Shown here: positions 27,320 through 28,775 of the stretch, in pieces | Position numbering within the stretch: position 1 is the stretch's first letter | Layout of the letters: the number at the start of each line of letters is the position of its first letter | Assembly: GCA_009914755.4 (NCBI GenBank) | Contig: CP068257.2 | Coordinates: 34,592,001 to 34,656,000 of the forward strand | Length of the DNA stretch: 64,000 nucleotides | Reading direction: 5' to 3' | Source: the human T2T-CHM13v2.0 reference genome, Homo sapiens | Translations under genes and position numbers: made by a program | The notes under the pieces: model-generated | What the model saw: only the letters and a program-made list of their open reading frames with translations | What the model was told of the DNA's origin: nothing | Database searches by the model: none

Positions 27320-27359
27320 TTTCCTTTTTTTCTTTTTTCTTTTTCTTTTTCTTTTTTTT
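27320..27359. repeat. T-rich (CTTTTT)n-like simple repeat next to the Alu tail
   Basis: tttttcctttttttcttttttctttttctttttctttttttttt. Confidence 0.8.
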
Positions 27360-27658
27360 TTTTTTTTTGAGACAGAGTCTCACTCTATTGCCCAGGCTGG
27401 AGTGTAGTTGCATGATCTCAGGATCTCAGCTCACTGCAACCTCCGCCTCCTGGATTCAAGTGATTCTCCTGCCTCACCCTCCCAAGTAGCTGGGATTACA
27501 GGTGCCCGCCGCCACACCTGGCTAATTTTTGTATTTTTAGTAGAGTTGGGGTTTTGCCATGTTGACCAGGCTGGCCTTGAACTCCTGACCTCAGGTGATC
27601 TGCCCCACTTCGACCTCCCAAAGTGCTGGGATTACAGGCATGAGCCACCGCTCCCAGC
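27360..27658 (-). mobile_element. Alu SINE, antisense; ends 178 nt upstream of exon 12
   Basis: Alu consensus match, antisense. Confidence 0.9.
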
Positions 27659-27835
27659 CTTTGGTAGGTTTCTTGCTTTATTTGTTGGTGATTTGTCTCT
27701 GAGCATGGAGGATTCTCACATGGCAAGTATAGGTGAGATCCAGTATGTCGGGGCTGGGACTGACTGAGTGAGGATGTGAGCGGATGTTGCCTGTGTTGAC
27801 CTGGTCCCCCACCGCCTGCCTTTTCCTTGTCCCAG

Positions 27836-27988
27836 AGGGTGGCTCGTGTGCTTTGGAATCAGCTGAACAAAGAGACCCGGGAGCATCACGTCACCTGCGT
27901 AGAATTGTTCTACCGGCTGCACTGCCTGGCCCCTACGGCCAACATCTGCGAGGACATCATCTGCCATGCCCTCCTGGACCCTGACAAG
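27836..27988 (+). CDS. DOP1B: coding exon 12 (153 nt, in-frame); encodes [51 protein letters not shown]
   Basis: acceptor ttttccttgtcccag|AGGGTG; donor GACAAG|gtgagc (strong); phase 0 in and 0 out. Confidence 0.85.
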
Positions 27989-28325
27989 GTGAGCCTTTCT
28001 GGCCGCCACCTCCATCCTGCAGCACCCCGGCCCCTGCTGTACGTGCCCTTAGCCAACTGACATCCATTCGGTCGAAGTCTTTCTGGGGCTGAGTGGACAT
28101 CGTGATTAATAAAATAAGCAGAGGTGTTCTAGGATTTCAGTACTGGAAGGCCACTAGAAGCATGAGCCATTCTTTTTACAGCCCTGGAAATGTGGTTTGT
28201 GACCATATTGAGGCTCACCAGGGAAACCTACCCAAACTTGCTGGAAGGACTTGCAGGGCTTCTGCAGGTGTTGGCAAAATAGGCAGTTGTAGGGAATTTA
28301 TTGTCCCTTTAAGAACTTATTGAAG

Positions 28326-28460
28326 CAGGGCGTGGTGGCTCACACCCGTAATCCCAGCATTTTGGGAGGCTGAGGTGGGAGAAATTGAGGCCAGGAGTTC
28401 AAGACCTGCCTGGGCAACATAGTGAGATCCATCTCTACCAAAAATAAATAAATAAATAAG
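28326..28460 (+). mobile_element. FLAM-like monomer, sense, (AAAT)n tail
   Basis: GGGCGTGGTGGCTCACACCCGTAATCCCAGCATTTTGGGAGGCTGAGGTGGGAGAAATTGAGGCCAGGAGTTCAAGACCTGCCTGGGCAACATAGTGAGATCC…. Confidence 0.75.
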
Positions 28461-28775
28461 GCCAGGTGCAGTGACTCACGCCTGTAATTCCAGCACTTTG
28501 GGAGGCCAAAGCAGGCGGATCACCTGAGGTCAGGAGTTTGAGACCAGCCTGGGCAACATGGTGAAACCCTGTCTGTACTAAAAATACAATATTAGCCGGG
28601 CATGGTGGCACATGCCTGTAATCCCAGCTACTCGGGAGGCTGAGGCAGGAGAACCACTTGAATCTGGGAGGCGGAGGTTGCGGTGAGCCGAGATCGCGCC
28701 ACTGCACTCTGGTTTGGGTGACAGAGCAAGACTCCGTCTCAAAAAATAAATAAATAAAAATAATAATAAACCAAT
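28461..28775 (+). mobile_element. Alu SINE, sense
   Basis: Alu consensus match. Confidence 0.9.

What the first reader, a model, noticed from the sequence alone, without database searches (positions are those of the whole stretch)
27320..28775. Exon 12 is tightly bracketed by an inverted Alu pair: candidate for back-splicing (circRNA), exon skipping and A-to-I editing
An antisense Alu (27360-27658) preceded by a (CTTTTT)n polypyrimidine run ends 178 nt upstream of the 153-nt in-frame exon 12. A sense FLAM plus a full sense Alu (28326-28775) begin about 340 nt downstream. The two sides are reverse complements of each other, so the pre-mRNA can form an intron-intron Alu duplex about 300 bp long that loops out exon 12. 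This arrangement promotes circRNA formation and ADAR editing. The T-rich tract next to the acceptor could also act as a decoy polypyrimidine tract.
Basis: inference. Interest (0 to 1): 0.5.

Follow-up and report, generated by a model that had tools for sequence, protein, structure and literature searches.

The report
Ordinary inverted Alu pair around DOP1B exon
A 153-base exon of the human DOP1B (DOPEY2) gene really does sit between two oppositely oriented Alu repeats that could pair in the pre-mRNA, but this layout is routine in this Alu-crowded gene and I found no evidence that this exon forms a circular RNA.

Summary
An antisense AluS (27369-27659, with a T-rich tail at 27321-27368) lies 176 nt upstream of a 153-nt, phase 0/0 exon (27836-27988). 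A sense FLAM (28325-28459) and a sense AluS (28460-28740, tail to about 28775) lie downstream. The two full Alus are predicted to form 264 intermolecular base pairs (ddG -245 kcal/mol; controls give -9 to -23).

The gene is human DOP1B/DOPEY2, because published oligos match the window exactly. In the numbering used in the literature the exon is exon 16, not 12.

The arrangement is ordinary. The window is 33% Alu, 12 of 20 internal exons have inverted Alu pairs across them, and 64 of 70 full Alus have an opposite-orientation partner within 2 kb. This pair is, however, the tightest bracket in the window (801 nt).

A validated circRNA in the same window, hsa_circ_0001187 (exons 20-21), has the same architecture, so the proposed mechanism is plausible. 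The circles I found reported for this gene involve exons 19, 20-21, 20-22 and 20-24, never exon 16. A 153-nt exon is also short for circularising on its own.

The 'decoy polypyrimidine tract' idea fails, because the tract lies 467 nt from the acceptor. Low-level A-to-I editing is likely; an abundant circle or exon skipping is unlikely. Known mechanism, low interest.

The parts
23370..23648 (+). DOP1B exon 15 (upstream neighbour). It ends ...TTCTATCAG|gt, in phase 0. The start coordinate is approximate (start of the tblastn match).
   Evidence: tblastn chain; sequence at 23630-23680
23649..27835 (+). Intron 15 (4187 nt). Its full Alus have orientations -, -, +, - (24445-24729, 25142-25409, 26012-26301, 27369-27659).
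26012..26301 (+). Sense AluJ-like element in the same intron as the antisense arm. It competes for that arm (ddG -211 kcal/mol, 258 bp).
27309..27320 (.). Target-site duplication, copy 1 (TTTGGTGGGTTT), of the antisense Alu insertion.
   Evidence: read directly; matches 27660-27671 at 11 of 12 positions
27321..27368 (-). A-tail of the antisense Alu, seen on the + strand as a T-rich (CTTTTT)n-like run. In the pre-mRNA it is a U-tract 467 nt upstream of the exon 16 acceptor.
   Evidence: TRF 27325-27368
27369..27659 (-). Full-length antisense AluS: the upstream arm of the inverted pair.
   Evidence: BLAST to consensus, positions 1-282, 85.6% identity; inverted repeats I1-I3
27660..27671 (.). Target-site duplication, copy 2 (TTTGGTAGGTTT).
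27815..27835 (+). Exon 16's own polypyrimidine tract and acceptor (cctgccttttccttgtcccag).
   Evidence: pyrimidine fraction 0.82 over positions -25 to -4 (27811-27832)
27836..27988 (+). DOP1B exon 16: 153 nt, phase 0/0, encoding RVARVLWNQ...ALLDPDK (51 aa).
   Evidence: numbering
27989..27994 (+). Exon 16 donor, AAG|gtgagc.
   Evidence: consensus score 7 of 8
27989..29174 (+). Intron 16 (1186 nt). It contains only sense-orientation Alu sequence, so there is no competitor within this intron.
28325..28459 (+). Free left Alu monomer (FLAM) with an (AAAT)n tail. It is a weaker second downstream arm (ddG -82 kcal/mol, 110 intermolecular bp).
28460..28775 (+). Full-length sense AluS (body 28460-28740) plus A-rich tail: the downstream arm of the inverted pair.
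29175..29275 (+). DOP1B exon 17 (101 nt).
29397..29677 (+). Sense AluS in intron 17. It is an alternative partner for the antisense arm (ddG -255 kcal/mol) and would loop out exons 16-17.

Best explanation
The locus is exon 16 of human DOP1B (DOPEY2, chr21), together with three independent primate retrotransposon insertions. These are an antisense AluS in intron 15, and a FLAM followed by a sense AluS in intron 16 (the AluS sits in the FLAM's A-rich tail).

Shown here: in the pre-mRNA the two full Alus are complementary and can form an imperfect duplex of about 264 bp, with 801 nt (the exon included) in the loop.

Inferred:
1. This duplex forms in only a fraction of transcripts, because the antisense arm has at least two other partners of similar strength.
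2. When it forms it is an ordinary ADAR1 substrate, so both Alus probably carry low-level, scattered A-to-I editing.
3. It can bring the exon 16 donor and acceptor together and allow occasional back-splicing. The 153-nt exon is short, so any circle is expected to be rare. A multi-exon circle that starts at the exon 16 acceptor (exons 16-17 or 16-18) is at least as likely.
4. Exon 16 itself is mostly spliced constitutively into the linear mRNA.

In short, this is a routine by-product of Alu density and not a dedicated regulatory device.
For: Gene identity: published human DOPEY2 oligos match the window exactly at 5340-5360, 38115-38139 and 51257-51280. hsa_circ_0001187 (exons 20-21, 301 nt spliced) maps to 38107-38218 plus 38971-39159, which is 112 + 189 = 301 nt.

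Anatomy.

Duplex strength: ddG -245 kcal/mol and 264 bp, against -9 to -23 for controls. It is the minimum-energy pairing in 1.5- and 2.8-kb folds.

Competition: the same-intron pair gives -211 and the pair with the next intron gives -255. The 3.7-kb fold switches to the 29397 partner.

Ordinariness: the window is 33% Alu with 91 Alu pieces. 12 of 20 internal exons have inverted pairs across them, and 64 of 70 full Alus have an opposite-orientation Alu within 2 kb.

Exon length: exons of 400 nt or less circularised poorly in the ZKSCAN1 system, and repeats alone do not decide circularisation (PMC4201285).

Editing: sense/antisense Alus within 2 kb form edited dsRNA. In 8% of edited intronic Alus the nearest inverted partner is in another intron (PMC2533698).

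Literature: the DOP1B circles I found involve exons 19, 20-21, 20-22 and 20-24.

Splice sites: pyrimidine-rich acceptor and AAG|GTGAGC donor.
Against: - No expression data could be examined, so editing, back-splicing and exon inclusion levels are all inferred.
- This is the tightest across-exon Alu bracket in the window (801 nt, next best 1300 nt).
- Its duplex energy is at least as good as that of the pairs flanking the validated hsa_circ_0001187 (-201 and -242).
- Intron 16 has no internal competitor.
- If pairing happens sequentially during transcription, 25142(-) could occupy 26012(+) first and leave 27369(-) free for the downstream arm.
- For these reasons a real circDOP1B(16) cannot be dismissed. 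Short single-exon circles do exist in the large catalogues (my own knowledge).
- The literature search covered main texts and only a few supplements, some of them truncated.
Confidence: 0.72

Rival explanations
1. One reading: the inverted pair makes exon 16 a significant source of a single-exon circRNA, circDOP1B(16), with linked in-frame exon skipping. Alu pairing would bring the splice sites together and back-splicing would compete with linear splicing.
For: - It is the tightest bracket in the window, with arms 176 nt and 471 nt from the exon (335 nt for the FLAM).
- The duplex is strong, ddG -245 kcal/mol, and is the minimum-energy pairing in local folds.
- The validated circle from exons 20-21 in the same gene has the same architecture.
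- DOPEY2 ranks high in the gene-level circular-RNA tables of some ENCODE cell types.
Against: - The exon is only 153 nt, and short exons circularise poorly (PMC4201285).
- No junction involving exon 16 appears in the Salzman 2012 DOPEY2 entries shown, nor in any paper found.
- Competing partners exist at -211 and -255 kcal/mol.
- The splice sites are strong.
- Inverted Alu brackets are common here, yet only a few exons of this gene are known to circularise.
Confidence: 0.12
2. The antisense Alu pairs mainly within its own intron, with the sense Alu at 26012-26301, which is transcribed first. The dsRNA would then be intra-intronic. It would be edited but would not loop out exon 16, and would have no effect on circularisation. 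At most it would slightly modulate recognition of the exon 16 acceptor.
For: - The same-intron pair gives ddG -211 kcal/mol and 258 bp, with a loop of about 1070 nt.
- Its partner already exists when the antisense Alu emerges from the polymerase (inference from transcription order).
- In 92% of edited intronic Alus the nearest inverted partner is in the same intron. The experimentally shown splicing effect in RABL5 came from a same-intron pair (PMC2533698).
Against: - The across-exon partner is closer (801 nt) and thermodynamically better (-245), and it wins in the 2.8-kb whole-region fold.
- 26012(+) may already be occupied by 25142(-), which is transcribed earlier (ddG -181).
Confidence: 0.3
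3. The T-rich tract matters for splicing. Either it acts as a decoy polypyrimidine tract for exon 16, or, more plausibly, it serves as the polypyrimidine tract of a cryptic Alu exon inside the antisense Alu. That exon would run from a 3' splice site at GAGACAG|AG (27374-77) to a 5' splice site at CAG|GTGCCC (GT at 27502-03). It would normally be repressed, for example by hnRNP C binding the U-tract.
For: - The signals are present in the sequence: a U-tract of about 44 nt, followed directly by two AGs, with a GT 5' splice-site candidate 124-126 nt downstream.
- Exonisation of antisense Alus through exactly these positions, and its repression by hnRNP C, are established (Lev-Maor 2003, Sorek 2004, Zarnack 2013; my own knowledge).
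Against: - The tract is 467 nt from the exon 16 acceptor, so it cannot act as that site's polypyrimidine tract. Exon 16 has its own strong tract.
- The candidate 5' splice site matches the consensus only at -3 to +3.
- Either reading frame hits a stop codon inside the Alu (my translation of the sequence), so inclusion would lead to nonsense-mediated decay and be hard to see.
- No transcript data were available.
Confidence: 0.08

Closest known systems
Exon circularisation promoted by inverted Alu repeats (Jeck 2013; Zhang 2014; Liang & Wilusz 2014, PMC4201285)
   Same: Full-length Alus in opposite orientation lie in the two introns flanking an exon with canonical splice sites. The predicted duplex is about 264 bp, and competing pairings are possible both within and across introns.
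   Different: No back-splice junction has been shown for this exon. The exon (153 nt) is much shorter than the exons that circularised efficiently in the ZKSCAN1 reporter, and the downstream intron is short (1186 nt).
hsa_circ_0001187 / circDOP1B(20,21), and hsa_circ_0008078 / circDOP1B(20-24), from the same gene
   Same: Same gene and same window. The upstream intron carries an antisense Alu (37492-37768) and the downstream intron carries sense Alus (39414-39695 and 39741-40018, or 51654 onward). Duplex energies are similar (-201 and -242, against -245 kcal/mol here).
   Different: Those circles are experimentally validated (Sanger-confirmed junction and divergent-primer PCR for both; RNase R resistance stated for hsa_circ_0001187; PMC10243067, PMC8591801). 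They are 301 nt or longer and multi-exon, and their upstream intron (839 nt) holds a single Alu with no competitor. Exon 16 has a same-intron competitor and no reported circle.
Promiscuous A-to-I editing of intronic inverted Alu pairs by ADAR (Athanasiadis 2004; Levanon 2004; Lev-Maor 2008, PMC2533698)
   Same: A sense and an antisense Alu lie within 2 kb in one pre-mRNA and form a long imperfect dsRNA.
   Different: The partners sit in different introns, which is the minority case (8% of edited intronic Alus in PMC2533698). Editing was not observed here.
Intronic Alu pairs that shift an exon from constitutive to alternative splicing (RABL5 exon 3; Lev-Maor 2008)
   Same: An antisense Alu lies upstream of the exon and a sense Alu lies further upstream in the same intron (26012-26301).
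   Different: In RABL5 the antisense Alu is 24 nt from the exon, and the effect faded as 25-75 nt spacers were added and was lost with 800 nt. Here the distance is 176 nt.

Membership tests
Alu SINE (dimeric AluS) - both arms | Full-length homology of about 280 nt to the dimeric Alu consensus (left and right monomers) | tested here: met
   27369-27659 (-) covers consensus positions 1-282 at 85.6% identity. 28460-28740 (+) covers 1-282 at 89.7%.
Alu SINE (dimeric AluS) - both arms | 3' A-rich tail and flanking target-site duplication | tested here: met
   The antisense copy has a T-run at 27321-27368 and a 12-nt duplication at 27309-27320 and 27660-27671, matching at 11 of 12 positions. The sense copy has an A-rich tail at 28741-28775. 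Its duplication cannot be read because it inserted into the FLAM's A-rich tail.
Free left Alu monomer (FLAM) | Homology confined to the left monomer, followed by its own A-rich tail | tested here: met
   28325-28437 aligns to left-monomer positions 2-118 (98 of 117 identical), whereas only 83 columns align to the right monomer. An (AAAT)n tail lies at 28442-28459.
circRNA-producing exon flanked by inverted Alus | Inverted complementary repeats in both flanking introns, able to pair across the exon | tested here: met
   264 bp, ddG -245 kcal/mol, and the minimum-energy pairing in local folds.
circRNA-producing exon flanked by inverted Alus | Across-exon pairing outcompetes pairing within an intron | tested here: inconclusive
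   The energies are -245 (across exon 16), -211 (same intron) and -255 (across exons 16-17). The preferred partner changes with the length of the region folded.
circRNA-producing exon flanked by inverted Alus | Exon or exon-block length compatible with efficient circularisation | tested here: not met
   The exon is 153 nt. In the reporter, exons of 400 nt or less circularised poorly or not at all (PMC4201285). This is a tendency, not an absolute rule.
circRNA-producing exon flanked by inverted Alus | A back-splice junction observed (reads, RNase R resistance, divergent-primer PCR) | not testable with these tools
   No RNA-seq data or circRNA database was available. Literature and supplement searches found only circles of exons 19, 20-21, 20-22 and 20-24.
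ADAR-edited Alu dsRNA | An opposite-orientation Alu within about 2 kb in the same transcript | tested here: met
   801 nt separate the arms. The 2-kb criterion is from PMC2533698.
ADAR-edited Alu dsRNA | Clustered A-to-G mismatches between cDNA and genome | not testable with these tools
   No transcript data or REDIportal access. The literature search on DOPEY2 plus A-to-I returned nothing specific.
Alu exonisation (cryptic exon from an antisense Alu) | An antisense intronic Alu with a U-tract, a 3' splice-site AG and a downstream GT 5' splice site | tested here: met
   U-tract at 27325-27368, AGs at 27374-77, and CAG|GTGCCC with GT at 27502-03. The 5' splice site is weak beyond position +3.
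Alu exonisation (cryptic exon from an antisense Alu) | Inclusion seen in transcripts | not testable with these tools
   No transcript data.

The most novel reading that the evidence does not exclude
The exon 16 bracket is a primate-specific, regulated switch. In some tissue, such as brain where circRNAs accumulate, Alu pairing (tuned by ADAR or DHX9 activity) would divert a meaningful share of DOP1B pre-mRNA into circDOP1B(16), (16-17) or (16-18), or into in-frame skipping of 51 conserved residues. This would modulate the dosage of a chromosome 21 gene that has been proposed as a Down-syndrome candidate.
Probability: 0.04. Interest if true: 0.35.

Novelty: already known. Interest (0 to 1): 0.1.

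Why it matters
It matters little as it stands. Inverted Alu pairs flanking exons are a textbook route to dsRNA, A-to-I editing and occasional back-splicing, and this gene is packed with them.

The practical value is a concrete and cheap prediction. Exon 16's acceptor has three antisense Alus upstream (at 24445, 25142 and 27369). The donors of exons 16, 17 and 18 each have sense Alus downstream. A catalogue look-up or a divergent-primer PCR could therefore show whether circDOP1B(16), (16-17) or (16-18) exists.

The window also offers an internal comparison: the validated exon 20-21 circle against the unreported exon 16 circle. That comparison illustrates that Alu complementarity alone does not predict circularisation, and that exon length and competing partners matter.

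Tried and rejected
1. Rfam scan of the whole window. It returned only two Alu-derived SRP-like hits and a snoU13 copy, with nothing in the finding's interval.
2. Pfam and PDB searches with the 51-aa exon peptide. They gave no useful hit. PF26706, the family pre-computed for the homologues, gave no match in the local Pfam search, so the gene could not be named that way.
3. The search for homologous proteins. It returned only short genomic ORFs that include intron read-through, and no spliced DOP1B proteins. I therefore did not spend a search on a back-splice junction peptide (LLDPDK|RVARVLW). The database contains no spliced linear junctions of this gene either, so a negative result would have meant nothing.
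4. Literature search by genomic coordinate fragments. It returned only noise such as PubMed identifiers.
5. Searches for other DOPEY2/DOP1B circRNA identifiers and for A-to-I editing in DOPEY2. Nothing concerned exon 16.
6. Supplement searches. Jeck 2013 is not held. Salzman 2013 has gene-level data only. Two recent circRNA profiling papers had no DOP1B rows in the supplements held.
7. An 'endless ORF' in a 153-nt circle. The length is a multiple of three and frame 1 has no stop, but frame 1 also has no AUG. The only AUG, in frame 2, gives a peptide of about 17 aa. I rejected this idea.
8. My recalled DOP1B protein sequence served only as a guide for locating exons. It is imperfect, matching at 70-100% per exon. 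Gene identity rests on the exact oligo matches and the match to the published circRNA's spliced length, not on the recalled sequence.
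Full report
**What is in the sequence**

- BLAST of three Alu consensus sequences (typed from my memory) against the window places a full-length antisense AluS at 27369-27659 (consensus positions 1-282, 85.6% identity). It also places a full-length sense AluS at 28460-28740 (89.7%).
- The run upstream of the antisense copy is T-rich and (CTTTTT)n-like. TRF reports it at 27325-27368. It is that Alu's own A-tail seen from the other strand.
- The insertion is framed by a 12-nt target-site duplication, TTTGGTGGGTTT at 27309-27320 and TTTGGTAGGTTT at 27660-27671.
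- The element at 28325-28437 aligns end to end with the Alu left monomer (98 of 117 columns identical). Only 83 columns align to the right monomer.
- The full sense Alu sits directly after that tail.

**The exon**

- 27836-27988 is bounded by cctgccttttccttgtcccag|AGG and AAG|gtgagc.
- It is 153 nt, and only frame 1 is open.
- The 51-aa peptide recurs at 69-98% identity in 15 ORFs from other assemblies. It is therefore a conserved coding exon.
- It is in phase 0 at both ends, so skipping it would remove 51 residues in frame.

**Which gene, and which exon number**

- Pfam and PDB searches with the peptide gave nothing.
- Stop-free stretches on the + strand revealed a chain of 22 coding exons. 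My recalled DOP1B/DOPEY2 protein sequence aligned collinearly to them.
- That recall is imperfect, so I looked for independent confirmation. Oligonucleotides published for human DOPEY2 (PMC8591801, supplementary Table S3) match the window with no mismatches. These are si-DOPEY2 at 5340-5360 and the two convergent cDOPEY2 primers at 38115-38139 and 51257-51280.
- hsa_circ_0001187 is described as exons 20-21, chr21:37619814-37620866 (hg19), 301 nt spliced (PMC10243067). It corresponds to window exons 38107-38218 (112 nt) and 38971-39159 (189 nt), which sum to 301.
- Counting back from exon 20, the finding's exon is exon 16. It is the 11th coding exon inside the window, not exon 12.
- The neighbouring exons are exon 15 (ends at 23648) and exon 17 (29175-29275). 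Intron 15 is therefore 4187 nt and intron 16 is 1186 nt.

**Is the complementarity real?**

- The repeat finder reports three collinear inverted blocks: 108 nt at 84%, 76 nt at 86% and 80 nt at 74%.
- Cofolding 27340-27665 with 28455-28775 gives 264 intermolecular base pairs. The gain is -245 kcal/mol over the two arms folded alone.
- Controls give -9 to -23 kcal/mol. They were the same arm against ten shuffled partners, two same-orientation Alus, and two non-Alu intron pieces.
- Folding the whole 27300-28800 region, or 25990-28800, as a single RNA puts all 264 pairs between these two Alus, with exon 16 in the loop.
It exists because both arms are Alus, and the only chance element is their relative orientation.

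**Is the arrangement special?**

- The window is 33% Alu, with 91 Alu pieces of which 70 are 200 nt or longer.
- 12 of 20 internal exons have at least one inverted full-length Alu pair in their two adjacent introns. 64 of 70 full Alus have an opposite-orientation Alu within 2 kb.
- The exon 16 bracket stands out in only one respect. It is the tightest, with 801 nt between the arms against 1300 nt for the next best. The downstream intron also contains only sense-orientation Alu sequence.
- The antisense arm has other partners of similar strength. They are the sense Alu at 26012-26301 in the same intron (-211 kcal/mol) and the sense Alu at 29397-29677 in intron 17 (-255 kcal/mol).
- When the folded region is extended to 29720, the minimum-energy structure switches to the intron 17 partner and loops out exons 16-17.
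- Thermodynamics therefore does not single out the exon-16-only loop. Which pairing dominates in the cell will depend on the order and speed of transcription and on helicases. This last point is inference.

**An internal positive control**

- The validated circle hsa_circ_0001187 lies in the window at 38107-39159.
- It is bracketed by one antisense Alu (37492-37768), the only Alu in the 839-nt intron 19. Sense Alus follow at 39414-39695 and 39741-40018. The duplex gains are -201 and -242 kcal/mol.
- hsa_circ_0008078 (exons 20-24, PMC8591801) uses the same acceptor, and its donor is followed by four sense Alus.
The exon 16 bracket is as good energetically as those known to work.

**Evidence bearing on an exon 16 circle**

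I could not examine RNA data or circRNA databases.

- In the searchable literature, DOP1B circles appear as exons 20-21 (PMC10243067, PMC8248110, PMC7946979, PMC13116067) and exons 20-24 (PMC8591801, PMC12218994).
- The supplementary tables of Salzman et al. 2012 list scrambled junctions 20/19, 21/19 and 18/18 for NM_005128. The 20/19 junction has a 301-nt product and so equals exons 20-21, which shows the indices count from zero. The three junctions are therefore exons 20-21, 20-22 and 19.
- Nothing involving exon 16 turned up. The search covered main texts and a few supplements, some truncated, so this is weak negative evidence.
- Liang and Wilusz found that ZKSCAN1 exons of 500 nt or more circularised well, while those of 400 nt or less circularised poorly or not at all. 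They concluded that circularisation is restricted to specific exons even though repeats are commonplace in introns (PMC4201285).
- At 153 nt, exon 16 is on the unfavourable side. Blocks that start at its acceptor are longer: exons 16-17 make 254 nt and exons 16-18 make 455 nt.

**Exon skipping and the 'decoy' tract**

- In the RABL5 minigene, an antisense Alu 24 nt upstream of an exon caused skipping. Inserting 25-75 nt progressively restored inclusion, and inserting 800 nt made the exon constitutive. The downstream Alus had no effect (PMC2533698).
- Here the antisense Alu ends 176 nt from the exon, and the exon has a strong pyrimidine tract and donor. Alu-driven skipping is therefore not expected to be large (inference).
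- The T-rich tract is 467 nt from the acceptor, so it cannot act as that site's polypyrimidine tract or as a nearby decoy.
- What the tract could do is serve the AG dinucleotides directly after it (GAGACAG|AG, 27374-77). Together with CAG|GTGCCC (GT at 27502-03), these outline a cryptic Alu exon of 124-126 nt.
- Both possible frames of that exon hit a stop codon, so inclusion would lead to nonsense-mediated decay.
- This is the classic route of antisense-Alu exonisation, normally repressed by hnRNP C (my own knowledge: Lev-Maor 2003, Sorek 2004, Zarnack 2013). I could not test it.

**Editing**

- A sense and an antisense Alu within 2 kb in one transcript is the standard substrate for promiscuous A-to-I editing.
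- In 8% of edited intronic Alus the nearest inverted partner lies in a different intron, as it does here (PMC2533698).
- Low-level editing of these Alus is therefore likely, and unremarkable. No paper I could find mentions it for this gene.

**Verdict**

- The interpretation applies a well-established mechanism correctly. However, it describes a configuration shared by most exons of this gene, and its specific predictions are untested.
- My estimates are as follows. Some editing in these Alus: about 0.85. Any catalogue back-splice junction using the exon 16 acceptor or donor: about 0.5. A single-exon circle at more than trace level: about 0.12. A regulatory role: about 0.04.
- The feature belongs to a known kind and is of low interest.

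Noticed in passing
window 38107-39159 (exons 38107-38218 and 38971-39159); flanking Alus at 37492-37768 (-), 39414-39695 (+), 39741-40018 (+): The validated circRNA hsa_circ_0001187 / circDOP1B(20,21) lies inside the window. It is bracketed by the same layout: an antisense Alu upstream and sense Alus downstream. Its upstream intron (839 nt) has a single Alu and no competitor.
   Followed up: yes
window 27374-27503: The antisense Alu carries the classic signals for Alu exonisation. A U-tract is followed by GAGACAG|AG, and CAG|GTGCCC lies 124-126 nt downstream. Either frame hits a stop codon, so inclusion would be a target for nonsense-mediated decay.
   Followed up: partly
window 49008-49113 (-): There is an Rfam snoU13 match (86 bits, full length) inside a DOP1B intron on the opposite strand. 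A poly(A) run follows it directly, so it looks like a retroposed U13 pseudogene.
   Followed up: partly
window 48183-48697: A long, degenerate (TAGA/TAGG)n microsatellite of about 515 nt lies just upstream of an Alu.
   Followed up: no
window 37434-37487, 32727-32780, 50749-50869: Other simple repeats are present. (TTATG)x10.8 abuts the antisense Alu that flanks the known circle. There is also (ATT)x18 next to an Alu tail, and a purine-rich (AAGG)n block.
   Followed up: no
window 38219-38970 (intron 20): The span from the start of exon 20 to the end of exon 21 is 1053 nt in the window but 1052 nt from the published hg19 coordinates. This implies either a 1-nt indel or a difference in coordinate convention. 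The window may come from another assembly or haplotype.
   Followed up: no
window 35634-37267: Exon 19 is unusually large (1634 nt). It is listed as a single-exon scrambled junction (18/18, counting from zero) in the Salzman 2012 supplement. Its inverted Alu partners are 5.6 kb or more apart, so proximity of the arms is not what decides circularisation in this gene.
   Followed up: partly
window 32103-35314: Six full-length Alus (plus one short fragment), all antisense, lie in a run in the second half of intron 18, after two sense Alus. This is a strongly orientation-biased cluster.
   Followed up: no
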